Positions 1,369 to 11,220 of a stretch of DNA of 11,220 bases are shown here, piece after piece. The DNA comes from a virus (lineage: Duplodnaviria; Heunggongvirae; Uroviricota; Caudoviricetes): the IMG/VR virus record IMGVR_UViG_2529292832_000020; one strand, 5' to 3'. Each line of letters opens with the position of its first letter. Positions within the stretch are counted from its first letter, which is position 1. The notes under the pieces were generated by a model. It was not told the origin of the DNA and made no database searches. It saw only the letters and a list, made by a program, of their open reading frames with translations. The translations under genes were made by a program, and so were the position numbers.

Positions 1369-1444
1369 GCCGATATAGCTCAGTTGGTAGAGCAGCGCAT
1401 TCGTAATGCGAAGGTCGTAGGTTCGACTCCTATTATCGGCACCA
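1369..1444 (+). tRNA. thrW: tRNA-Thr (anticodon CGU)
   Basis: 76-nt sequence GCCGATATAGCTCAGTTGGTAGAGCAGCGCATTCGTAATGCGAAGGTCGTAGGTTCGACTCCTATTATCGGCACCA with D-loop AGCTCAGTTGGTAGAGC, T-loop GGTTCGACTCC and 3' CCA; anticodon loop TTCGTAA gives CGT. Sits immediately 3' of proA. Confidence 0.9.
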
Positions 1445-3516: not shown

Positions 3517-4043
3517 TTGCGTAACTCCGATAACTCGTTAAAGCGTTCCATAAACATCCCGTAGGCATGGCCCGGTGCCAGTGGAATCACGTTGAACATC
3601 TCTGTTGCCGGGATACCTTCCAGTACAGGCCAGAAAGAGCCATCATCAAGCCCGAGATCGCGGCGTTCGGTTGCCAGCATGATGAGATCGGCATATTTCA
3701 CGGGCGTACTCATAACTGGGGGTAACCCGTATTTCTCACGGATTACGGCGTCTATTTTTTCTTCCATTTGTTTATAGTCAGGAAGAAGGCGTTTCAGTGG
3801 TGCGGGAATGTCCTGGCAATACGCTTCTGTTGCATCATGCATTAACGCTTCAAAAGCAAATTCCTGCGGCACCAGCTGGCTGCAAAGAACCGCATGTTGG
3901 GCGACGCTGTAGAAGTGCGAAAGATGACCGGCAAAGCGACAGATATTTGAAAGGGAAACCGCGATATCGTTAATATCGATGTCGTCTTTATTTATCTTGT
4001 CATAATAAAAATGCTTCCCGGAAAAAGTTTTAATAAATGACAT
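3507..4043 (-). CDS. HD-domain phosphohydrolase, probable 5'-deoxynucleotidase (YfdR-like, 178 aa)
   Basis: The track ORF starts at a GTG (4070); I place the start at the ATG at 4041-4043, preceded by GGAG 6 nt upstream. HD-domain residues are visible (VAQHAV..., ...LMHDATEAY). Matches the length I recall for K-12 YfdR. Confidence 0.78.
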   Translation of the reverse strand: MSFIKTFSGKHFYYDKINKDDIDINDIAVSLSNICRFAGHLSHFYSVAQHAVLCSQLVPQEFAFEALMHDATEAYCQDIPAPLKRLLPDYKQMEEKIDAVIREKYGLPPVMSTPVKYADLIMLATERRDLGLDDGSFWPVLEGIPATEMFNVIPLAPGHAYGMFMERFNELSELRKCA

Positions 4044-4170
4044 TTTGTTCTCCACGTATATGCGCTGCACCGCGCTGAATTCTGGTAAAAAGAATCCCTC
4101 ACCATCCGGCGATTATTGAGTAAATTACGTTTCCATAAATGCCCCCGCAGGGGCATTTGCAGTAATGAAA

Positions 4171-4995
4171 TCAGGCGGTGAAAGTACCAATAAAGGTTTC
4201 TACTTTGCTGTCCTTGAATTTCTCAACAAGCAGATCACGAAATTCGTTAGCCATTTCTTCCTGCACCGCCTCCAGCTGAATAATGCGCAGAACCAGTACA
4301 GGACGATCGCCAGTGATAATACTGAGGCGTAATTTAAACGGACGTTCTTTCAGACCTTCAAACGGAACGCATTTAAATTCAAATGCCACTGGCATAATGT
4401 CTTTGGTCTTCGCTTCGACAGACTCCATCAGGGAGCGTTTGCCGCTGAAGTCATTATCTTCAAAATCAGCGGTCTGGTTTGCTTCAATCGTGATTTTACG
4501 GACAGCCGCAGCCGCTTTTGTTGCCTGAATAGCGTCACCATTAGCATCAAAGCCCACAAGATAGTCGGCCCAGTCTTCAATCCATTCTGCTAGTGACTTC
4601 TGGGAGTTACGCTCGCCGTTAACAGACAACAGAGCAGAGAACGGTGCTGTCTTTTTCAGTTTGAGTGTGGCGGTGTTATCTGCGTGACCTGGTTCATCAA
4701 TAGTACCCAGGTTAAGCACACTGACGGCACGCATATTATCAGCATCGATAAAGCAGCGGGTGCCTTCATCTGCAAGATCTTTAGAATAACGGGTAAAGTC
4801 ATCGATGCTGGCAGTGGAAAGCGCACCACGGAAACGGAAGCGATTTAAATTAAATTTTTCCAGATCATGAATGCGGAAATTCTCAGGCAATGCCACAGCA
4901 TCGGCACCAATCTTACTGATAATTTCATTAACACCCTGAGCAGAAATAAGGGCATGGATTTGATTAATTGCGGTTGCGTCTAAGTTCTGAGACAT
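4171..4995 (-). CDS. DUF2303-family phage protein (YfdQ-like, 274 aa)
   Basis: 274-aa ORF, ATG at 4993-4995 with GAGGA Shine-Dalgarno. Length and sequence gestalt match K-12 YfdQ as I recall it; function unknown. Confidence 0.75.
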
Positions 4996-5060
4996 AATAA
5001 GTCCTCACTATATAAAGATATTCAGTGATGAGATAAATAATCAGTTAATTAAAAACGATA

Positions 5061-5423
5061 TTAACGACCTGCTGCGCGGAGTTTTCCGTCAGGTTCACCG
5101 GCAAGAGTCAGTAATTGTCCTTGGTCTTCCTGCAGAATAGTCAGGCGACCACCGCGATTGACATACATCGGCGTTTCGGTGGTGTCTTCTTCGGAAATTT
5201 TCCCGCGGTTAGTCGGGCGAACATATGAGAGTTTGTGTTTGATTTTCACTCGGTTCTCATCAAACGGTTCGATTTCCAGGTTGAGCGAGACCTTACCTTT
5301 GGTTTTCGTGTTCATCACACCGGAAGCGACTTCACTGAGAACTGCGCCGATTTTGGTTTCAAATACGCCGCCGTCCAGCTCCCCGATAAATGCCTGCACA
5401 TCAGTACTGCGTTCGCTAGCCAT
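5061..5423 (-). CDS. hypothetical phage early protein (YfdP-like, 120 aa)
   Basis: The track's 226-aa ORF has a Cys/Trp/Arg-rich non-protein-like N-terminal extension. I start at the internal ATG at 5421-5423 (MASERSTDVQAFIGELDGG...), which has a GAGGAG Shine-Dalgarno 7 nt upstream and gives 120 aa. Confidence 0.68.
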   Translation of the reverse strand: MASERSTDVQAFIGELDGGVFETKIGAVLSEVASGVMNTKTKGKVSLNLEIEPFDENRVKIKHKLSYVRPTNRGKISEEDTTETPMYVNRGGRLTILQEDQGQLLTLAGEPDGKLRAAGR

Positions 5424-5561
5424 TTTGCTGCTCCTCATCATATCGACCCTGCAAGGTCGGTTAGTTTCTCCACAAAACAGAGAAGAACACCTGCGGTGAC
5501 TGCCGCCCGGATGGATTGGGTTATGAGCCCGTCGTCCGGTGATGCTCTTCTCTGTTTTGTA

Positions 5562-5605
5562 AAAAGGACGGTACCAGCCGGAAGCAAGGGTACAAGCTGG
5601 TACCG
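5562..5605 (-). terminator. candidate intrinsic terminator or attenuator on the minus strand, upstream of the early-left operon
   Basis: On the minus strand, a 10-bp perfect stem (plus-strand CGGTACCAGC at 5569-5578 and GCTGGTACCG at 5596-5605) with a 17-nt loop is followed within 2 nt by UUUUU (plus-strand A-run 5561-5565). The large loop weakens the call. Confidence 0.35.
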
Positions 5606-5827
5606 CCAAGACTACACACAGCATAAAGTTGTGGTGCCGGGTGCCTCCCGGTGCCTGGCGAAGGTTGTACACCAGACGGGTGGGTATCCACAGAAGGTCG
5701 ACTGTCAGCCTCAACCTTAACCCGCGTGCGCTGAGCCGCATTCACCACAACGCTAAGGATTCTCTCTGGTTGAAAATACTTAGCTGTTATGTGCCTGCTT
5801 TTAGCCACATCAGGCGAGGTGGACCTG

Positions 5828-5866
5828 GTTATTCCCCAACAACAAGGATTCGGTATAATCTGGATA
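5828..5866 (+). promoter_or_regulatory. candidate promoter of the AT-rich insert operon (consensus -10 TATAAT, weak -35)
   Basis: Exact TATAAT at 5854-5859, about 30 nt upstream of the AGGAAGGA ribosome-binding site of micro-ORF A. No good -35 (ATTCCC/TTCCCC). Flanked by direct repeats CCCAACAACAAGG (5835-5847) and CCCAACAACAGG (5868-5879). Confidence 0.35.
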
Positions 5867-5891
5867 TCCCAACAACAGGTAGGAAGGAAAT

Positions 5892-5975
5892 ATGTACGTA
5901 GATAGCAATGAAAAATTTCATGTTCCGGTAAATCAGAGACCAGCACCGATCCCTGAGCCGAAACCTGAAATGTAA
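5892..5975 (+). CDS. micro-ORF A, 27-aa proline-rich peptide (MYVDSNEKFHVPVNQRPAPIPEPKPEM)
   Basis: ATG at 5892 preceded by AGGAAGGA; stop TAA at 5973-5975, 10 nt before the membrane-protein ATG. Paralogous to micro-ORFs B and C with synonymous codon differences. Too short for the supplied ORF track. Confidence 0.4.
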   Translation: MYVDSNEKFHVPVNQRPAPIPEPKPEM

Positions 5976-5985
5976 GGGAATAGAG

Positions 5986-6465
5986 ATGACTCGAGACGAT
6001 CTAGCATTCGATATTCATTATTCTTTCTTTCTTGAGAAAATGAATTACACCCTTTTAAATCGGATAGACAAGAGCATAACTCTTGTTCTCATTGTCTTGG
6101 GCTTTTCTGTTTTTGCGCCATATAGCAATATGTTTATTTTTGGCGCATCTGTAGCTATTTTGTCGGTGCTTCAATTGGTATACCAATTTGGGCAGGAAGC
6201 TGGCTTATCAAAGGAACAGATGCGACAGTATAAAAGGTTGATTGTTGAGTTTTCCTCCCTTTCTGATGACGAACTACGCACTCGGTTTTTAAAGGTTCAA
6301 GACGCTGATAGTAATCCATGGAGATCTTTACAAGATGCTGCGTTCAAACGGACCTGTATTGCGCTGGGACGTGTTGATGAGTCAGAAATATCATTCATGC
6401 ATAGCGTTATCGCATGGTTTGCTGGAGATTTGCCTCGGTCAAAAAGGTGTAATAATGACAAATAG
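5986..6465 (+). CDS. two-transmembrane membrane protein of unknown family (159 aa); candidate exclusion/defence effector
   Basis: ATG at 5986. Two hydrophobic helices (ITLVLIVLGFSVFAPY and MFIFGASVAILSVLQLVYQFG) separated by a 3-residue turn, then a charged soluble C-terminal region of about 95 aa. Opposite strand to all neighbouring phage genes, AT-rich, with its own -10 and terminator. Confidence 0.75.
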   Translation: MTRDDLAFDIHYSFFLEKMNYTLLNRIDKSITLVLIVLGFSVFAPYSNMFIFGASVAILSVLQLVYQFGQEAGLSKEQMRQYKRLIVEFSSLSDDELRTRFLKVQDADSNPWRSLQDAAFKRTCIALGRVDESEISFMHSVIAWFAGDLPRSKRCNNDK

Positions 6466-6571
6466 AATTCCCATAATCCCTAACCATGTACCTCCAAAGC
6501 CCAGACCACCATCACCAAAGTCACACAGGCTTTATGAGTATGAATTAATAATGGATTCTATATTGAGATGA
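6455..6571 (+). CDS. micro-ORF B, 38-aa proline-rich peptide (MTNRIPIIPNHVPPKPRPPSPKSHRLYEYELIMDSILR)
   Basis: ATG at 6455 with AAGGTG 5 nt upstream; overlaps the last 11 nt of the membrane-protein gene in another frame. Shares the HVP...PRPPSP core with A and C. Confidence 0.35.
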   Translation: MTNRIPIIPNHVPPKPRPPSPKSHRLYEYELIMDSILR

Positions 6572-6575
6572 CCAA

Positions 6576-6665
6576 ATGAATGCATTTATATATACATGGA
6601 AAGAGGATCATATACCCTTAAAACCTCGTCCTTCACCGCCAGAACCGAAGCCAAAATCCCGTTAA
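6576..6665 (+). CDS. micro-ORF C, 29-aa proline-rich peptide (MNAFIYTWKEDHIPLKPRPSPPEPKPKSR)
   Basis: ATG at 6576, 5 nt after the ORF B stop; stop TAA at 6663-6665, about 30 nt before the terminator. Core HIPLKPRPSPPEPKP aligns with A (HVPVNQRPAPIPEPKP) using different codons (R as CGT vs AGA; P, E, K synonymous changes). Confidence 0.35.
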   Translation: MNAFIYTWKEDHIPLKPRPSPPEPKPKSR

Positions 6666-6693
6666 GTGTTGGGGATCTCCAGATTGTTAAAGA

Positions 6694-6722
6694 GCGAAGC
6701 GTCCTATAGGGCGCTTTTTTGT
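6694..6722 (+). terminator. rho-independent terminator of the insert operon
   Basis: GC-rich hairpin GCGTCC-TATA-GGGCGC (6699-6714, one G-U pair) followed by TTTTTTGTT (6715-6723) on the plus strand, directly after micro-ORF C. Confidence 0.6.
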
Positions 6723-6805
6723 TGCTAACGAATCATCCTGGACTTCATATGCCCCAGGCGGCTACTTCGTGGGCGTCCTGCCTGTTCGTTGTTTCGCTTG
6801 GGTAC

Positions 6806-6833
6806 ATTATGTATCTCAAAGGTACATTGTCAA
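6806..6833 (-). promoter_or_regulatory. candidate leftward early promoter (PL-like) with an operator-like palindrome in the spacer
   Basis: Minus strand reads TTGACA (plus 6828-6833), a 16-nt spacer, then CATAAT (plus 6806-6811). The spacer contains ATGTAC-N7-ATACAT (plus 6809-6827), one mismatch from the OR palindromes. Lies immediately downstream of the repressor terminator. Confidence 0.45.
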
Positions 6834-6834
6834 G

Positions 6835-6860
6835 TATAAAAAAACCTGCCGAAGCAGGTT
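6835..6860 (-). terminator. rho-independent terminator of the repressor gene
   Basis: On the minus strand, 13 nt after the repressor stop: 7-bp stem AACCTGC/GCAGGTT (plus 6843-6849 and 6854-6860) with 4-nt loop, followed by UUUUUUUA (plus-strand A-run 6836-6842). Confidence 0.55.
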
Positions 6861-6872
6861 CATAAACATTGA

Positions 6873-7547
6873 TTAGGCTTTGATTTTGTATCTTCTTGGT
6901 TTTCCTGAGAAAATCACTGTACCAATTATAGAGCAATTACCGTTGATCTTAATGTAAGGCTCAGGCCAGTTTGGGTTTAACGCTTTGAGATAACGCTGTG
7001 TCCCATCTTCTATCAACCTTTTGAAGGTGGTTTCACCTGTATCGTGCATCAATGCAATAACGTCGTCACCGTGGCAGGCAGGTACTTCAGGATCGACAAA
7101 AATCATGTCTCCCGGGCGGTACTCATCAATCATTGAATCACCTATCACCCGCAAGATATAAGTCATTTCCCCACAGGGTACAGGGCAGGGATACGTTTCT
7201 GCTGTGCTCAAATCAACCTCAGAATATCCAACTTCTTTCCATGCTCCGGCCTGTACCCATGATATGACAGGGACTAATGTGATTTGTTTATTAGTGATTG
7301 AAACATCAGGTTTTTTTGTGATGTTCGTTGTCTGGTGTTCTTGATCGAGCCATCCGACAGGCAGGTCGAAACATTTTTCGATGTGTCGTGCCATGCTGTC
7401 ACCGATATTTTTAGTAGCACCATCTCCCATAAACCTGCTGGTCTGGGTTGGCTCGCGATCAATCATAGTGGCAAAGGAAGAATTCCCGCCAACACCATCT
7501 CTCAGTTTTCTGGCGTTAGACCGCCGGATGTCATGGATTGTTTTCAT
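6873..7547 (-). CDS. CI/C2-type prophage repressor (N-terminal DNA-binding domain plus C-terminal S24 LexA-like peptidase domain)
   Basis: 224-aa ORF, ATG at 7545-7547 with no Shine-Dalgarno (consistent with a leaderless transcript, as for lambda cI from PRM). S24 motifs are visible (ILRVIGDSM with catalytic Ser; Lys in ...TFKRLIEDG...). The C-terminal ...LNPNWPEPYIKINGNCSIIG resembles P22 C2 as I recall it. Confidence 0.88.
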   Translation of the reverse strand: MKTIHDIRRSNARKLRDGVGGNSSFATMIDREPTQTSRFMGDGATKNIGDSMARHIEKCFDLPVGWLDQEHQTTNITKKPDVSITNKQITLVPVISWVQAGAWKEVGYSEVDLSTAETYPCPVPCGEMTYILRVIGDSMIDEYRPGDMIFVDPEVPACHGDDVIALMHDTGETTFKRLIEDGTQRYLKALNPNWPEPYIKINGNCSIIGTVIFSGKPRRYKIKA

Positions 7548-7563
7548 AACGAAATTAAAACCC

Positions 7564-7582
7564 TTGTACCGTTAAGGTACAA
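7564..7582. promoter_or_regulatory. operator-like palindrome TTGTAC-N7-GTACAA (upstream OR site)
   Basis: Perfect 6-bp inverted half-sites with a 7-bp spacer in the repressor/cro intergenic region, just upstream of the PR -35. Confidence 0.5.
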
Positions 7583-7587
7583 GTATC

Positions 7588-7615
7588 TTGAAGGTTCATT
7601 TCAATCATGTAATAT
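7588..7615 (+). promoter_or_regulatory. PR-like promoter for the cro-like operon
   Basis: -35 TTGAAG (7588-7593), 16-nt spacer, -10 TAATAT (7610-7615); cro-like ATG at 7638 with GGAGGT ribosome-binding site. Confidence 0.5.
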
Positions 7616-7632
7616 GTACACCGGAGGTACAT
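7614..7632. promoter_or_regulatory. operator-like palindrome ATGTAC-N7-GTACAT (PR-proximal OR site)
   Basis: Perfect inverted half-sites (the full inverted repeat is AATATGTAC...GTACATATT, 7611-7635), overlapping the PR -10/start region and the cro ribosome-binding site. Confidence 0.5.
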
Positions 7633-7637
7633 ATTGT

Positions 7638-7838
7638 ATGAAAGCGTATTGGGACTCTTTAACCAAAGAACAGCAGGGCGAGTTAGCCGGAAAAGTTGGC
7701 TCAACACCTGGCTACTTACGGCTGGTTTTCAATGGCTATAAAAAAGCCAGTTTTGTGCTGGCTAAAAAACTTGAGCAATGCACGTCAGGTGCAATTACGA
7801 AATCTGACTTAAGACCGGATATCTATCCGAAAGATTAG
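7638..7838 (+). CDS. Cro-like helix-turn-helix regulator (66 aa)
   Basis: ATG at 7638 preceded by GGAGGT; the track's longer in-frame ORF is an antisense read-through of the repressor gene. Small basic protein divergent from the repressor, in the canonical cro position. Confidence 0.72.
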   Translation: MKAYWDSLTKEQQGELAGKVGSTPGYLRLVFNGYKKASFVLAKKLEQCTSGAITKSDLRPDIYPKD

Positions 7839-7869
7839 CAGAACACTTTCAATTTTTAACCACAGAACG

Positions 7870-8439
7870 ATGAGGCTAATCGTGGGTAAGCATCACTGGA
7901 AAATAGAAAAACAGCCTGAGTGGTACGTGAAAGCTGTCAGAAAAACTATCGCGGCGTTGCCGGGTGGTTACGCTGAAGCGGCTGACTGGCTCGATGTAAC
8001 AGAAAACGCTTTATTCAACCGCCTTCGTGCAGATGGCGATCAGATTTTCCCGCTGGGATGGGCAATGGTTTTACAGCGTGCTGGTGGCACTCACTTCATT
8101 GCTGATGCTGTGGCGCAGTCTGCAAATGGCGTCTTTGTGTCTCTTCCTGACGTCGAGGATGTGGACAACGCCGATATTAACCAGCGTCTGCTGGAAGTCA
8201 TTGAACAGATCGGCAGTTATTCAAAACAGATTCGTTCAGCAATCGAAGACGGTGTAGTGGAACCGCATGAGAAGACAGCAATTAACGACGAGCTGTATCT
8301 CTCAATTTCGAAGCTGCAGGAGCATGCAGCACTTGTCTACAAAATTTTTTGCATTTCAGAAAGTAATGACGCCCGCGAGTGTGCAGCTCCGGGCGTCGTG
8401 GCGTCGATTGCTTCTGGTTGTGGAGAAACTAACGCATGA
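7870..8439 (+). CDS. phage-186-CII-like regulatory protein (189 aa)
   Basis: Follows cro. The central segment [51 protein letters not shown] aligns in pattern with my recollection of phage 186 CII. The start could instead be GTG at 7882, which has GAGG 6 nt upstream. Confidence 0.6.
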
Positions 8440-8774: not shown

Positions 8775-8794
8775 AGGTCGGTCATGAGCACTAA
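8615..8794 (+). CDS. hypothetical small protein from a TTG start (59 aa), or the C-terminal part of a frameshifted gene
   Basis: Open frame with AAGGAG 8 nt upstream of TTG at 8615; translation [59 protein letters not shown] has balanced composition. Overlaps the O-like start by 11 nt. Below the track's length threshold. Confidence 0.3.
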
Positions 8795-9740
8795 ATTAAC
8801 CGGCTATGTATGGGATGGTTGCGCTGCATCAGGCATGAAGTTATCCAGCGTGGCAATTATGGCCCGCCTGGCTGATTTCAGTAATGACGAAGGTGTGTGC
8901 TGGCCATCAATTGAAACCATTGCCCGTCAGATTGGAGCGGGGATGAGTACCGTCAGAACGGCTATCGCACGGCTGGAAGCAGAAGGCTGGTTAACGCGTA
9001 AGGCGCGTCGCCAGGGTAACCGCAATGCGTCGAATGTTTATCAGCTTAACGTTGCGAAGCTTCAGGCAGCGGCATTTTCTCAACTGTCAGATTCTGACCC
9101 GTCAAAATCTGACGCATCAAAATCTGACGCATCAAAATCTGACCCGTCAAAATTTGATGCGTCGAAATCTGGCAAAAAAGCGGGTTTTCACCCGTCAGAA
9201 TCTGGCGGGGATCCGTCAGTAAAATCAAAACATGATCCGTCAGATAAAAAACCTTCTCGTCCGGACGCTTCGCAACCGGACACGCAGACGGCTGAACAGG
9301 ATTTTTTAACTCGCCATCCTGATGCGGTTGTATTCAGCCCTAAAAAGTGCCAGTGGGGGACGCAGGATGATTTGACCTGCGCACAGTGGCTCTGGAAAAA
9401 AATCATCGCCCTGTACGAGCAGGCTGCCGAATGTGACGGCGAGGTGGTTCGTCCCAAAGAACCGAACTGGACAGCCTGGGCAAACGAAATTCGCCTGATG
9501 TGTGTACAGGATGGGCGTACTCACAAACAAATCTGCGAGATGTACAGCCGCGTCAGCCGCGATCCGTTCTGGTGCCGTAACGTGCTCAGCCCGTCGAAGT
9601 TGCGGGAAAAATGGGATGAGCTTTCCCTGCGCTTATCGCCGTCCGTCAGCACGTACACCGAAAAACGCGAAGACCCGTACTTCAAAGCCAGTTACGACAA
9701 CGTGGACTACAGCCAGATCCCGGCAGGATTCAGGGGGTGA
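8784..9740 (+). CDS. phage replication initiation protein (O-like; N-terminal helix-turn-helix domain, repeat-encoded linker, C-terminal domain)
   Basis: 318-aa ORF, ATG at 8784 with GAGG upstream. N-terminal ...SVAIMARLADFSNDEGVCWPSIETIARQIGAGMSTVRTAIARLEAEGWLT is a winged-helix replication-initiator domain; the central DPSKSDASKSDASKSDPSKFDASKS repeat is encoded by tandem DNA iterons, as in lambda O. Confidence 0.8.
   Translation: MSTKLTGYVWDGCAASGMKLSSVAIMARLADFSNDEGVCWPSIETIARQIGAGMSTVRTAIARLEAEGWLTRKARRQGNRNASNVYQLNVAKLQAAAFSQLSDSDPSKSDASKSDASKSDPSKFDASKSGKKAGFHPSESGGDPSVKSKHDPSDKKPSRPDASQPDTQTAEQDFLTRHPDAVVFSPKKCQWGTQDDLTCAQWLWKKIIALYEQAAECDGEVVRPKEPNWTAWANEIRLMCVQDGRTHKQICEMYSRVSRDPFWCRNVLSPSKLREKWDELSLRLSPSVSTYTEKREDPYFKASYDNVDYSQIPAGFRG
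9084..9255 (+). repeat. iteron array, probable replication origin embedded in the initiator gene
   Basis: Six tandem 15-bp units (consensus TCAAAATCTGACGCA) from 9088 to 9177, then a short A-rich stretch GGCAAAAAAG and further CCGTCAG-containing repeats (9191-9245). Confidence 0.6.
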
Positions 9741-9742
9741 TC

Positions 9743-10231
9743 ATGAGTCTTTTGAATGACGTTCAGAAATTCATTGAAGCCCATCCGGGCTGTACTTCCG
9801 GAGACATTGCGGATGCTTTTGCAGGTTACTCACGGCAGCGCGTACTGCAGTCAGCAAGCAAGTTACGTCAGAGTGGGCGTGTGGCTCACCGTTGTGAAGG
9901 AGATACACGCAGACATTTCCCACGCCTGACTGAGAGAGCGCAGGAGCCGGAACCACAACCAGTTCGTGAAACCAGACCTGTGCGCAATTTCTATGTCGGC
10001 ACTAACGATCCCCGGGTGATTTTGTGCCTGACCCGCCAGGCGGAAGAACTGGAGTCCAGGGGCTTATACCGTCGTGCTGCAACGGTGTGGATGGCGGCAT
10101 TCCGTGAAAGCCACTCCCAGCCAGAACGAAACAATTTTCTGGCGCGTCGTGAGCGGTGCTTACGGAAAAGCAGCAAGCGCGCTGCATCGGGTGAAGAGTG
10201 GTATCTGTCAGGGAATTACGTGGGGGCTTAA
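9743..10231 (+). CDS. ANR-family / PerC-like transcriptional regulator domain protein
   Basis: Start placed at ATG 9743 (track starts at GTG 9737) with GGGGG upstream, 2 nt after the O-like stop. The C-terminal LYRRAATVWMAAFRES...ERNNFLARRERC matches the ANR/PerC signature as I recall it. Confidence 0.5.
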   Translation: MSLLNDVQKFIEAHPGCTSGDIADAFAGYSRQRVLQSASKLRQSGRVAHRCEGDTRRHFPRLTERAQEPEPQPVRETRPVRNFYVGTNDPRVILCLTRQAEELESRGLYRRAATVWMAAFRESHSQPERNNFLARRERCLRKSSKRAASGEEWYLSGNYVGA

Positions 10232-10884
10232 TGAGTAATAAATATTGCCAGGCGCTGGTGGAGCTGCGGAACAAACCAGCCCATGAACTGAAGGAAGTGG
10301 GCGATCAGTGGCGCACGCCGGATAACATTTTCTGGGGAATTAACACCCTGTTTGGCCCGTTTGTTCTGGATCTGTTCACTGATGGTGATAACGCCAAATG
10401 TGCCGCTTATTACACTGCGGAAGACAACGCGCTGGCGCATGACTGGTCTGAACGTCTTGCGGAGCTTAAAGGTGCTGCCTTTGGTAATCCCCCGTACAGC
10501 CGCGCCAGTCAGCATGAAGGGCAATACATCACCGGCATGCGTTACATCATGAAGCATGCTAGTGCCATGCGTGATAAGGGCGGACGCTATGTTTTCCTGA
10601 TCAAAGCTGCCACCAGCGAAGTGTGGTGGCCGGAAGATGCAGATCATATTGCTTTTATTCGCGGGCGTATTGGTTTTGAACTGCCTGCCTGGTTTATCCC
10701 GAAGGACGAGAAGCAGGTGCCGACAGGCGCTTTCTTCGCTGGTGCTATTGCTGTTTTCGACAAGACCTGGAAGGGACCGGCAATCAGCTACATCGGGCGC
10801 GATGAACTTGAGGCATGTGGTGAGGCGTTTCTGGCGCAGGTTCGCCAGCAGGCAGAAAAACTGGTCAGGGAGATGGCGGCATGA
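10231..10884 (+). CDS. phage Dam-like DNA N6-adenine methyltransferase (orphan, 217 aa)
   Basis: ATG at 10231 overlapping the upstream stop (TAATG); the track starts at an upstream GTG. Catalytic NPPY motif present (AFGNPPYS); no restriction partner in the window. Confidence 0.82.
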   Translation: MSNKYCQALVELRNKPAHELKEVGDQWRTPDNIFWGINTLFGPFVLDLFTDGDNAKCAAYYTAEDNALAHDWSERLAELKGAAFGNPPYSRASQHEGQYITGMRYIMKHASAMRDKGGRYVFLIKAATSEVWWPEDADHIAFIRGRIGFELPAWFIPKDEKQVPTGAFFAGAIAVFDKTWKGPAISYIGRDELEACGEAFLAQVRQQAEKLVREMAA

Positions 10885-10944: not shown

Positions 10945-11220
10945 GTAAGCGTCAACGGAGCACCGTATTGACGCTTATTTATTGGTGAGTACTACGTTCC
11001 ATGGCAGGAGTTCGTCAACACGGTTGGAGGGCCATTCCGGCAGTACGCTCAGAATATGGCGCAGATACGCTTCCGGATCGATACCGTTCAGTCGGCAGGT
11101 GCCGATCAGCCCGTACAGCAGTGCTCCACGCTCGCCGCCGTGATCGCTACCGAAGAACACGTAATTTTTCTTTCCGAGACAGACTGCACGAAGCGCTCTT
11201 TCCGCTGTGTTATTGTCCAC
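10945..11220 (-). mobile_element. IS66-family insertion sequence, terminal about 276 bp (element continues beyond the window)
   Basis: The plus strand begins GTAAGCGTCAACGG..., i.e. the element ends ...CGCTTAC in its own orientation, which matches the IS66-family terminus as I recall it. The transposase C-terminus is encoded 31 bp inside on the minus strand. Confidence 0.7.
10975..11220 (-). CDS. IS66-family transposase (TnpC), C-terminal fragment; 5' part lies outside the window
   Basis: Translation ...DNNTAERALRAVCLGKKNYVFFGSDHGGERGALLYGLIGTCRLNGIDPEAYLRHILSVLPEWPSNRVDELLPWNVVLTNK matches the conserved C-terminus of IS66 transposases; the frame is open to the window edge. Confidence 0.85.
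   Translation of the reverse strand: MDNNTAERALRAVCLGKKNYVFFGSDHGGERGALLYGLIGTCRLNGIDPEAYLRHILSVLPEWPSNRVDELLPWNVVLTNK

What the first reader, a model, noticed from the sequence alone, without database searches (positions are those of the whole stretch)
6694..6872. Compact terminator-promoter-operator arrangement behind the repressor, convergent with the insert operon
On the minus strand the repressor stop (6873) is followed by a hairpin plus U-tract terminator (6860-6835) and then a near-consensus promoter (TTGACA, 16-nt spacer, CATAAT; 6833-6806). The spacer holds ATGTAC-N7-ATACAT, one mismatch from the OR palindromes, so this looks like OL/PL. Transcription from it would read antisense through the insert operon (6665 down to 5892) before reaching the early-left genes about 1.4 kb away. 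That arrangement could couple insert expression to the lysogenic state by transcriptional interference. The plus-strand insert terminator (6694-6722) sits face-to-face with this promoter.
Basis: partly seen in the sequence, partly recalled or inferred. Interest (0 to 1): 0.5.

Follow-up and report, generated by a model that had tools for sequence, protein, structure and literature searches.

The report
Prophage early-left promoter and leader RNA
The stretch behind the prophage repressor gene is the ordinary leftward early promoter with its repressor-binding sites, but the transcript it starts opens with a widespread, strongly conserved folded RNA that nobody has annotated, plus a host antitermination signal, which may explain how transcription crosses an oppositely oriented cargo cassette.

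Summary
On the minus strand the repressor gene (6873-7547) is followed by a hairpin+U7 terminator (6861-6835) and a TTGACA-16-CATAAT promoter (6833-6806). Its spacer holds a 9/10 match to the two perfect TGTAC-N7-GTACA palindromes between repressor and cro; a weaker second site lies 20 bp downstream. Relatives (SfV, SfIV, e14) keep hexamers and half-sites invariant while the operator centre varies. Prophages with other repressors carry their own motif at the same place, and homology resumes at about +8. So this is the PL/OL early-left control region of an SfV/e14-type lambdoid prophage. It is ordinary, and phage Ayreon's record already annotates a promoter and terminator there.

There is a 64-nt three-way-junction RNA (6790-6727) with strong covariation, present in 27% of complete E. 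coli genomes, absent from Rfam, and unlike the HK022 and HK639 put RNAs. A perfect boxA (6696-6684) abuts the hairpin, which is a good terminator only for the plus strand. The 'insert' is one allele of a polymorphic cargo slot. The architecture requires antisense read-through. Interference and antitermination remain untested.

The parts
6873..7547 (-). cI-like LexA-family repressor gene (YmfK/CohE, SfV cI type)
   Evidence: ORF. Peptidase_S24 1.5e-26. phrog_4 transcriptional repressor. Annotated cI / ymfK in relatives.
6835..6861 (-). Intrinsic terminator ending the repressor transcript. Its U/T tract sits at about -37 to -47 of PL.
   Evidence: Scan hit with 8-bp stem plus T7. -11.6 kcal/mol, z -4.9, 0/200 shuffles. 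Invariant in 21 relatives. Annotated terminator in SfV and Ayreon.
6806..6833 (-). PL: -35 TTGACA (6833-6828), 16-nt spacer, -10 CATAAT (6811-6806). Predicted start near 6799.
   Evidence: 11/12 consensus. Both hexamers invariant in 21 variants. Annotated 'promoter' at the homologous place in phage Ayreon. The start site is inferred.
6810..6826 (.). OL1 operator, TGTAT-N7-GTACA, inside the PL spacer and overlapping the -10
   Evidence: 1 mismatch to the OR palindrome. Half-sites invariant while the centre varies at 6/7 positions.
6790..6806 (.). OL2, a weaker operator TGTTT-N7-GTACA, 20 bp centre-to-centre from OL1, covering the start site
   Evidence: 2 mismatches. The promoter-proximal half-site is invariant and the distal half variable.
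6727..6790 (-). Conserved three-way-junction leader RNA, +10 to +73 of PL. P1 6790-6783 / 6735-6727; mini-hairpin 6782-6772; near-invariant strand 6771-6759; P2 6758-6754 / 6741-6737 with conserved 12-nt loop.
   Evidence: 136 distinct variants. Covariation 0.392 vs 0.114 shuffled, 0/500; 10 pairs with double changes. CM hit 95.9 bits. No Rfam family.
6696..6722 (+). Plus-strand intrinsic terminator closing the cargo slot (stem 6696-6717 plus T6). As minus-strand RNA the same hairpin is weak and has no U tract.
   Evidence: Plus strand -13.7 vs minus strand -7.2 kcal/mol. One G.U pair on the plus strand is a C.A mismatch on the minus strand (sequence). Shared by all cassette types.
6684..6696 (-). 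boxA consensus CGCTCTTTAACAA on the PL transcript (about +104), directly 3' of the hairpin
   Evidence: The only 0-mismatch match to YGCTCTTTAACAA in the window. Fits GYTCTTTAANA of PMC5725501. Present in 13/14 hairpin-bearing leaders and 1/89 others in boxA-blind samples. Core invariant while flanks vary.
6672..6685 (.). Right inverted repeat of the cargo slot (partner 5857-5870)
   Evidence: I23. Cassette-specific co-variation of left and right repeats.
5892..6665 (+). Cargo cassette: ORFs of 27, 159, 38 and 29 aa, convergent with PL
   Evidence: The 159-aa protein is phrog_6315, function unknown. GC 0.32-0.47 against 0.5-0.6 in the flanks. Replaced by other cassettes in relatives.
5854..5859 (+). 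TATAAT, candidate -10 of the cargo promoter, with a poor -35; lies in the shared left border next to the left inverted repeat 5857-5870
   Evidence: Read from the sequence. Not reported by the promoter scan. Most relatives have GTTAAT here. Status uncertain.
5558..5781 (-). STnc100/PasD-like structured RNA on the PL path, ending in a strong terminator hairpin (5607-5567 plus U5)
   Evidence: Rfam RF02076 41.1 bits, below the gathering score of 47, E 4e-7, full-length. Hairpin -23 kcal/mol, z -4.1.
5061..5423 (-). yfdP homologue, first early-left gene reached by PL
   Evidence: phrog_204. Annotated yfdP / orf32 in relatives.
7565..7631 (.). OR: two perfect TGTAC-N7-GTACA palindromes (7565-7581, 7615-7631) between the repressor gene and cro (7638-7838)
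   Evidence: SfV record annotates a 'putative operator region' here. Perfect matches expected 0.005 per window.

Best explanation
Window 6684-6872 is the early-left control region of an SfV/e14-type lambdoid prophage integrated at thrW.

Shown by sequence and comparison:
- The repressor transcript ends at an intrinsic terminator (6861-6835).
- PL (6833-6806) follows immediately. It carries one strong and one weak operator of the same class as the two OR palindromes.
- The immunity module ends about 8 nt into the transcript.
- Next comes a module that is independent of immunity type: a 64-nt three-way-junction RNA.
- In phages that have the cargo slot, a hairpin follows that terminates only plus-strand transcription, and it abuts a consensus boxA on the PL strand.

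Inferred mechanism:
- In the lysogen the repressor occupies OL1/OL2 and silences PL. The cargo cassette is transcribed rightward and stops at 6696-6722, which shields PL and the repressor gene from read-in.
- After repressor cleavage PL fires. The nascent leader RNA folds, and boxA recruits NusB/NusE and the other Nus factors.
- The polymerase then travels about 1.3 kb of untranslated RNA, mostly antisense to the cargo. It passes the STnc100-like terminator and reaches yfdP through to xis-int.
- In doing so it collides with and opposes cargo transcription.
For: Anatomy and statistics.

Conservation pattern typical of a promoter with operators: hexamers and half-sites invariant, operator centre variable.

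Module boundary at window position ~6791: strain AR62.2 has the same cargo and leader joined to a different repressor. Its own ACTAAG motif recurs both behind that repressor and in its OR. At least 5 immunity types adjoin the same leader.

The same arrangement occurs in SfV, e14, A38 and PhiR29_1. Ayreon's record annotates a terminator and promoter at the homologous place.

mEp237, ST64B and ZF40 place the leader RNA upstream of the early-left genes; in ST64B and ZF40 it lies 100-120 nt after the repressor stop.

The scan found no other minus-strand sigma-70-like promoter between 1300 and 5700, nor between 5000 and 6800.

Leader RNA covariation.

boxA. Precedent for boxA protecting long untranslated RNA from Rho: PMC7665894.

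Hairpin asymmetry.
Against: - There are no experimental data here: no start site, no repressor binding, no RNA-seq.
- OL has only one good operator, and OL2 is weak at 8/10.
- A crude scan found no enrichment of sense-strand canonical terminators in the 3 kb downstream of the leader RNA across 112 distinct contexts (0.24 per 3 kb). A general need for antitermination is therefore not demonstrated.
- boxA overlaps the hairpin by one base, so its association with the cargo slot could be linkage rather than selection.
- Phages of the same immunity type (Ayreon, cdtI, Stx2c phages) break homology inside the leader RNA at 6776 and lack it. It is thus not required for PL function as such.
- The cargo promoter is not established.
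Confidence: 0.75

Rival explanations
1. The boxA match has no Nus-factor role. The hairpin with its flanks is simply the terminator of the plus-strand cargo slot, and the A-rich TTGTTAAAGAGC stretch upstream of it is conserved as part of that terminator or of the slot border (right inverted repeat).
For: The hairpin is optimised for the plus strand. boxA overlaps the hairpin by one base and abuts the inverted repeat, so all three are inherited as one block. No N protein or boxB is present.
Against: The match is 13/13 to the rrn-type consensus, the only one in the window. In boxA-blind samples GCTCTTTAA is invariant, and the only varying base is the consensus N, while the hairpin loop, stem and inverted repeat vary. 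The motif lies on the strand and at the position where a long untranslated transcript begins, as in CRISPR leaders.
Confidence: 0.3
2. Convergent transcription has no regulatory meaning. The cassette is an insulated moron expressed in the lysogen, and PL fires only in cells already committed to lysis, so interference with cargo expression is irrelevant.
For: The cassette has low GC and a terminator, and the slot is polymorphic, which is typical of morons. Antisense-strand terminators are common in early-left regions of this family (71% of 112 contexts). This suggests opposite-strand cargo is simply tolerated there.
Against: In the converse direction, cargo transcription impeding basal PL could still stabilise lysogeny. 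The conserved orientation of all cassettes and the unidirectional terminator argue that the geometry is selected.
Confidence: 0.4
3. The promoter makes only a short non-coding RNA, with the three-way-junction element acting as a stand-alone sRNA. Early-left genes would then be transcribed from elsewhere.
For: The element is compact, conserved and lies right after a strong promoter. In two contigs a truncated second copy lies 668 nt downstream.
Against: No terminator follows it on the minus strand: the hairpin there is weak and lacks a U tract, and it is absent altogether in SfV and e14. In 55 of 89 cassette-less leaders an SD plus start codon follows within 95 nt. No alternative promoter was found for yfdP-int.
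Confidence: 0.07
4. The promoter-like and operator-like matches are chance similarities without function.
For: A single 11/12 promoter match is expected in about 16% of random windows.
Against: There are three operator matches against 0.18 expected, and 0/2000 random sequences reach 3. The functional positions are strictly conserved while neighbours vary. Several immunity types show a parallel design.
Confidence: 0.02

Closest known systems
Phage lambda cI-rexAB-t(imm)-PL/OL arrangement (established knowledge)
   Same: The repressor transcript is terminated just upstream of a leftward early promoter. That promoter's operators belong to the same class as OR. The promoter is repressed in the lysogen and drives the recombination/xis/int side.
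   Different: Two OL sites are recognisable here, one of them weak, against three in lambda. There is no N gene and no boxB. The repressor stop to PL start distance is only 74 bp. A convergent cargo slot sits between PL and the first early-left gene.
Immunity regions of Shigella phage SfV / SfIV, E. coli e14 (ymfK-ymfT) and phage Ayreon
   Same: 95-99% identical repressor, terminator, PL/OL and OR. The Ayreon record annotates 'terminator' and 'promoter' at the homologous positions. SfV annotates the terminator and the OR operator region.
   Different: Downstream of the leader these phages carry other content. SfV has orf33 on the PL strand followed by a terminator. e14 has ymfJ/I/H. Ayreon diverges inside the leader RNA at 6776. 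None of the records annotates the leader RNA or boxA.
HK022 put RNAs and the HK639 putL-like antiterminator RNA
   Same: Cis-acting structured RNA of about 70-125 nt placed just downstream of PL in lambdoid phages without N (PMC9378689; HK639 record).
   Different: No sequence or covariance-model similarity. The fold is a three-way junction closed by an outer stem, not two tandem long stem-loops. There is a single copy, with no PR-side partner. Antitermination activity is untested.
BoxA/Nus-factor antitermination of rRNA operons and CRISPR arrays (PMC5725501, PMC7665894)
   Same: A perfect GYTCTTTAANA at the start of a long untranslated transcript. In those systems the known effect is protection from Rho.
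   Different: The context is a phage PL leader without N. boxA directly follows a hairpin (rrn order boxB-boxA), and that hairpin doubles as the terminator of the opposite strand. Binding and effect are untested.
Convergent-promoter interference (coliphage 186 pR/pL) and phage morons (established knowledge)
   Same: Face-to-face transcription units in a lysis-lysogeny switch region. The cargo has its own terminator, low GC and a presence/absence polymorphism.
   Different: The promoters here are about 950 bp apart rather than 62 bp. Interference would therefore act by collision or antisense RNA, not promoter occlusion. The cargo sits in a fixed slot with conserved borders and cassette-specific inverted repeats.

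Membership tests
Lambdoid PL/OL early-left promoter-operator | Sigma-70 promoter next to the repressor gene, reading away from it toward the recombination/xis/int genes | tested here: met
   TTGACA-16-CATAAT at 6833-6806 on the minus strand. Downstream genes are yfdP-yfdT and the integrase on the same strand.
Lambdoid PL/OL early-left promoter-operator | Operators of the same sequence class as OR, overlapping the promoter | tested here: met
   9/10 and 8/10 matches at 6810-6826 and 6790-6806 against perfect OR sites. 3 hits observed vs 0.18 expected. Half-sites invariant, centre variable.
Lambdoid PL/OL early-left promoter-operator | Operators co-vary with repressor specificity (part of the immunity module) | tested here: met
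   Homology with the heteroimmune strain AR62.2 ends at ~6791. Its ACTAAG motif occurs both behind its repressor and in its OR. At least 5 immunity types adjoin one leader.
Lambdoid PL/OL early-left promoter-operator | Repressor binding, and repression in the lysogen with induction after SOS | not testable with these tools
   Needs EMSA or footprinting and RNA-seq or 5'-RACE.
Intrinsic (Rho-independent) terminator | GC-rich hairpin followed by a U tract on the transcribed strand | tested here: met
   6861-6835 on the minus strand: 8 bp plus U7, -11.6 kcal/mol. 6696-6722 on the plus strand: 9 bp plus U6, -13.7 kcal/mol. In vivo termination was not tested.
BoxA / Nus-factor antitermination site | Match to the gamma-proteobacterial consensus GYTCTTTAANA on the RNA strand | tested here: met
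   CGCTCTTTAACAA at 6696-6684 on the minus strand. Consensus taken from PMC5725501.
BoxA / Nus-factor antitermination site | NusB/NusE (SuhB) recruitment and a Rho-dependent effect on downstream transcription | not testable with these tools
   Needs ChIP, boxA point mutants and bicyclomycin.
Lambda-type nut site (boxA-boxB with N protein) | boxB hairpin (5-bp stem, GNRA-like pentaloop) a few nt 3' of boxA | tested here: not met
   The sequence after boxA is UCUGGAGAUCCCCAACAC, the right inverted repeat of the slot. No such hairpin is present.
Lambda-type nut site (boxA-boxB with N protein) | N-like arginine-rich antiterminator encoded downstream of PL | tested here: not met
   No minus-strand ORF between 6800 and 5424 other than spurious overlaps. 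First PL-strand proteins of relatives (SfV orf33, e14 YmfJ, A38 68-aa ORF) have no arginine-rich N terminus. Evidence is moderate only.
HK022 put / HK639 putL-like antiterminator RNA | Structured RNA just downstream of PL in an N-less lambdoid phage | tested here: met
   The element spans +10 to +73 of PL.
HK022 put / HK639 putL-like antiterminator RNA | Two tandem stem-loops (stem I with triplex, 14-bp stem II), and sequence or profile similarity to put | tested here: not met
   The fold is a three-way junction with a closing stem. There is no blast or CM hit in the HK022 immunity region or at the annotated HK639 putL-like RNA. The put architecture is from PMC9378689.
HK022 put / HK639 putL-like antiterminator RNA | Second copy downstream of PR (HK022) | tested here: not met
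   One hit in the window. 100 contigs gave 103 hits, with no opposite-strand partner.
HK022 put / HK639 putL-like antiterminator RNA | Factor-independent suppression of pausing and termination | not testable with these tools
   Needs in vitro transcription or terminator read-through reporters.
Moron / cargo cassette | Present or replaced among otherwise collinear phages, with deviant base composition and its own terminator | tested here: met
   At least 8 cassette types between fixed borders. GC 0.32-0.47 vs 0.5-0.6. Plus-strand terminator.
Moron / cargo cassette | Own promoter active in the lysogen | tested here: inconclusive
   TATAAT at 5854-5859 has a poor -35 and was not reported by the scan. 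Most relatives have GTTAAT at that position.
STnc100 / PasD prophage sRNA (Rfam RF02076) | Score at or above the Rfam gathering threshold | tested here: inconclusive
   41.1 bits against a threshold of 47, full-length, E 4e-7, at 5558-5781 on the minus strand.

The most novel reading that the evidence does not exclude
The 64-nt three-way-junction RNA at +10 to +73 of PL would be a new class of cis-acting elongation-control RNA, functionally analogous to HK022 put but structurally unrelated. It would modify RNA polymerase as it leaves PL. Together with a stand-alone boxA, it would give N-less lambdoid prophages (SfV, e14, ST64B, ZF40, mEp237 and about a quarter of E. coli genomes) protein-independent processive antitermination. 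This would let PL read through oppositely oriented cargo cassettes and internal terminators.
Probability: 0.3. Interest if true: 0.8.

Novelty: new variant of a known kind. Interest (0 to 1): 0.5.

Why it matters
The terminator-PL/OL arrangement is textbook lambdoid biology and matters only as correct annotation.

The leader is a different case. It is an RNA with a near-invariant core of about 25 nt and two heavily covarying stems. It sits at the very start of the early-left transcript in many temperate phages of Escherichia, Shigella, Salmonella, Klebsiella, Yersinia, Pectobacterium and others, including e14 of E. coli K-12. It is not in Rfam or in any record seen here.

How these N-less phages get their early-left transcripts past terminators, past Rho and through antisense cargo is not known. 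This element and the adjacent boxA give a concrete hypothesis that can be tested in K-12.

The fixed cargo slot, with a unidirectional terminator facing PL, is also a tidy example of how prophages host lysogen-expressed cassettes inside a lytic operon.

Tried and rejected
1. HK022 put homology. Blast of the leader against HK022 23000-31000 and a CM search found nothing. Rejected.
2. HK639 putL-like RNA. The record annotates one at 34187-34312, but the CM gives no hit there. Rejected.
3. Rfam. There is no family for 6715-6805 even at E<=10.
4. Hammerhead or other small ribozyme cores. Compared by eye with the junction sequences; the order and sequence of the junction strands do not fit. Not pursued.
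5. A PR-side second copy (putR analogue). None in the window or in 100 contigs.
6. Lambda-type nut. No boxB and no N.
7. Strand assignment of the leader RNA from G.U versus A.C counts. Uninformative, with about 9 of each. The strand was assigned from context.
8. General enrichment of sense-strand terminators downstream of the element. Not found with a strict scan. That scan also misses long-loop hairpins such as 5607-5567.
9. Function of the cargo proteins. No Pfam, PADLOC or NCBIfam hit; only phrog_6315, of unknown function.
10. Literature. The e14 analysis paper (Mehta 2004) and King 2011 are not held. No held paper contains the leader core sequence. One literature search (CohE/CroE) was wasted on word-start matches.
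11. Whole-leader MFE folding of the single sequence was not significant (z -0.5). The structure rests on covariation, not on energy.
Full report
**Context.** The window is an E. coli prophage inserted beside proA at a tRNA gene (1369-1441). It carries an integrase (1459-2622), yfdT/S/R/Q/P-like early-left genes, a LexA-family cI-like repressor (6873-7547, minus strand), a YdaS/Cro-like gene (7638-7838), a YmfL homologue and an O-like replication gene. The 5400-7700 segment is 99.9% identical over its full length to a chicken E. coli chromosome. Its repressor-cro part is 95-99% identical to Shigella phages SfV and SfIV, to e14 of K-12 (ymfK-ymfT), and to phages Ayreon, cdtI and the Stx2c phages.

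**The observation.**
- The minus-strand hairpin 6861-6842 is followed by seven T. It folds at -11.6 kcal/mol with z = -4.9. The plus-strand version has no U tail.
- TTGACA-16-CATAAT at 6833-6806 is an 11/12 match and the best promoter hit in 5000-8000.
- TGTAC-N7-GTACA is perfect at 7565-7581 and 7615-7631. It has one mismatch at 6810-6826 and two at 6790-6806.
- The plus-strand hairpin 6696-6717 is followed by six T.

An 11/12 promoter alone is expected 0.17 times per window. Three operator matches with at most one mismatch are expected 0.18 times, and 0 of 2000 random sequences reached that number.

**Is it PL/OL?** Three comparative results say yes.
1. Among 21 distinct relatives of this immunity type, the terminator, both hexamers and the half-sites ATGTAC/ATACAT never vary. 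The seven central operator bases vary at six positions, and the flanks vary too. This is the signature of a dimer-binding operator inside a promoter.
2. The immunity module ends just inside the transcript. Strain AR62.2 has the same cargo and the same leader up to window position ~6791, then a different 208-aa repressor. Its own ACTAAG motif recurs both behind that repressor, around a TTGCCA-17-TAGATT promoter, and in its repressor/cro intergenic region. In IMG/VR contigs at least five immunity types join the same leader at the same point.
3. The Ayreon GenBank record already annotates 'terminator' and 'promoter' at the homologous positions, and SfV annotates the terminator.

OL1 fills the spacer and overlaps the -10. 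OL2 lies 20 bp away (two helical turns) over the start site. No other sigma-70-like minus-strand promoter is seen between the integrase and 6800. PL, with a start near 6799, must therefore supply yfdP (ATG 5423) and the genes beyond. The identification as PL/OL is well supported but not experimentally shown. As an arrangement it is the canonical lambdoid one (lambda: cI-rex-t(imm)-PL/OL).

**The 'insert'.** Homology breakpoints show a slot rather than a one-off insertion.
- PhiR29_1 shares 5400-5877 and 6667-7700.
- SfV shares 5400-5822 and 6727-7700.
- Ayreon shares 5400-5609 and 6776-7700.

Across 109 contigs at least eight different cassettes of 553-792 nt lie between one left border (~5866-5877) and one right border (~6667-6684). 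The plus-strand terminator belongs to the shared right border, not to this cassette. The cassette here has low GC and encodes a phrog_6315 protein plus three short proline-rich ORFs of unknown function. Its promoter is uncertain. A TATAAT at 5854-5859 lies in the shared left border but has a poor -35, and most relatives have GTTAAT there. Each cassette type is flanked by imperfect inverted repeats of about 20 nt that co-vary between the two ends. I cannot explain these.

**The hairpin and boxA.** As plus-strand RNA the 6696-6717 hairpin is a good terminator (-13.7 kcal/mol, U6). As minus-strand RNA it is weak (-7.2, centroid -3.6), has a C.A mismatch where the plus strand has G.U, and lacks a U tract. 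It should stop cargo transcription but not PL. On the PL strand it is followed at once by CGCTCTTTAACAA (6696-6684). This is the only perfect match in the window to the rrn/phage boxA, and it fits the GYTCTTTAANA consensus of Baniulyte et al. (PMC5725501). In samples collected without reference to boxA, 13 of 14 distinct leaders with the hairpin have boxA, against 1 of 89 without it. GCTCTTTAA is invariant, and the only variable base is the consensus N, while the hairpin and the repeat vary. There is no boxB and no N-like protein, so this is not a lambda-type nut site. The nearest precedent is boxA alone protecting long untranslated RNA from Rho, as in rrn operons and CRISPR arrays (PMC7665894). 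That fits a PL transcript that must run about 1.3 kb untranslated. The role is inferred, and physical linkage to the hairpin is an alternative reason for the association.

**The leader RNA.** The 77 nt between PL and the hairpin are the most conserved part of the region. Searching IMG/VR with two different anchors gave 136 distinct variants. They share a nearly invariant (C)AGGCAGGACGCCCACGAAGUAGCCG. Next comes a 5-bp stem with many compensatory versions (CCUGG/CCAGG, CCGGU/ACCGG, CCCGA/UCGGG, CCAGC/GCUGG, CUACC/GGUAG, CCCCA/UGGGG, CCGAC/GUCGG) around a conserved 12-nt loop GGCRUAUGAAKR. An outer stem also covaries (GCGAA/UUCGC, CCACC/GGUGG, GUCAUC/GAUGAC, GCAAA/UUUGC).

On 45 distinct sequences 93.7% of cells pair, against 79.3% when shuffled. 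The covariation score is 0.392 against 0.114 (0/500 shuffles), and at most 0.072 when partners are slid. Ten pairs show double changes. RNAalifold adds a GGC-AGGAC-GCC mini-hairpin with one compensatory change. The result is a 64-nt three-way junction, 6790-6727 on the minus strand, from +10 to +73 of PL.

- A covariance model scores 95.9 bits here. It finds a single copy per contig and no PR-side copy.
- It does not hit the HK022 immunity region or the annotated putL-like RNA of HK639.
- Rfam 15 has nothing for it.
- No held paper contains its core sequence.
- It occurs in 1493 of 5426 complete E. coli genomes with no feature annotated under it.
- It also occurs in SfII, ST64B, phiNP, ZF40, YeP1-3, mEp237, mEp460, SPN3UB and Klebsiella and Pantoea phages. 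In ST64B and ZF40 it lies about 100-120 nt after the repressor stop, on that strand; in those two and in mEp237 it sits ahead of the early-left genes.

What follows the element differs from phage to phage: an SD and ORF in 55 of 89 cassette-less leaders, or the hairpin/boxA/cargo slot. Its function therefore seems independent of the downstream gene.

**How it most likely works.**
- Shown: the anatomy above.
- Inferred, lysogen: the repressor holds PL off. The cargo is transcribed rightward and ends at 6722, so PL and the repressor gene are shielded.
- Inferred, after induction: PL fires, the leader RNA folds, boxA loads Nus factors, and polymerase proceeds antisense through the cargo. It passes the STnc100-like element, whose 3' hairpin (5607-5567, -23 kcal/mol, U5) looks like a strong terminator. 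It also passes a second terminator-like hairpin after yfdQ (annotated in Ayreon).

My leading hypothesis for the leader RNA is put-like control of elongation, at about 0.3. Alternatives are a 5' stabiliser or processing signal, a ligand- or protein-binding aptamer, or a stand-alone sRNA.

Three points count against a general antitermination need. A strict scan found few sense-strand terminators in the 3 kb downstream across 112 contexts. Ayreon-type phages of the same immunity lack the element. Single-sequence folding energy is unremarkable.

Transcriptional interference between PL and the cargo is a reasonable consequence of the geometry, through collisions and antisense RNA over about 950 bp. 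Nothing here tests it.

**Verdict.** PL/OL is supported and ordinary. The 'insert terminator' is reinterpreted as a shared, unidirectional slot border that also carries boxA.

Noticed in passing
window 5558-5781 (minus strand): Full-length but sub-threshold match to Rfam STnc100 (41.1 vs 47 bits, E 4e-7). This prophage sRNA family was recently linked to PasD. It ends in a 13-bp hairpin plus U5 (5607-5559) that lies on the PL path before yfdP. A much weaker second hit lies at 4000-4179.
   Followed up: partly
window 5857-5870 and 6672-6685; loci L018, L057, L058, L070, L075, L080, L088: Every cargo cassette in the slot is flanked by imperfect inverted repeats of about 20 nt (AATCTGGATATCCCCAACAAC type). 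The repeats differ between cassette types but match between the two ends of one cassette. They could be a 5'-3' mRNA panhandle, the ends of a small mobile element, or recombination linkers.
   Followed up: partly
window 5892-5975, 6455-6571, 6576-6665 (plus strand): Three short ORFs (27, 38, 29 aa) with similar proline-rich stretches (RPAPIPEPKPE, PKPRPPSPKS, KPRPSPPEPKPKS) surround a 159-aa predicted membrane-like protein (phrog_6315). None has a Pfam, PADLOC or NCBIfam match.
   Followed up: partly
window 5460-5475 and 8418-8433: A perfect 16-nt inverted repeat TTGTGGAGAAACTAAC, containing GGAG. One copy lies upstream of yfdP on the minus strand. The other lies just before the ATG at 8436 on the plus strand. 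It may be a shared translational or sRNA target site in both early operons.
   Followed up: no
window 4132-4157 (minus strand): Hairpin AAAUGCCCC-UGCG-GGGGCAUUU directly after the yfdQ stop, annotated as a terminator at the homologous place in phage Ayreon. It is a second terminator-like signal inside the early-left operon.
   Followed up: partly
loci L173 (979-1037) and L246 (about 3600-3668): A second, 5'-truncated copy of the leader RNA (42.9 bits) lies 668 nt downstream of the full copy on the same strand.
   Followed up: no
window 6776; locus L002 (Ayreon), also cdtI and Stx2c phages: Phages with the same repressor, terminator and PL/OL lose homology inside the three-way-junction RNA, and they also lack the STnc100-like segment. 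They are natural 'deletion' controls for both elements.
   Followed up: partly
window 9069-9204: A cluster of overlapping direct and inverted repeats of TCAAAATCTGAC-like units lies inside the O-like replication gene (8784-9740), which there encodes a DPSKSDASKSD repeat. By analogy with lambda ori it is probably the iteron-type replication origin.
   Followed up: no
window 10975-11220 (minus strand): An ORF running off the window end resembles, from memory only, the C-terminal part of an IS66-family transposase. This suggests an insertion sequence interrupts the prophage after the 228-aa ORF at 10198-10884.
   Followed up: no
window 1369-1441 and 1459-2622: A tRNA gene (71.8 bits) lies immediately before a P22/SfV-type integrase and next to the proA-like gene at 1-1254. 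This fits the thrW attachment site used by SfV-like phages (the site name is from memory).
   Followed up: no
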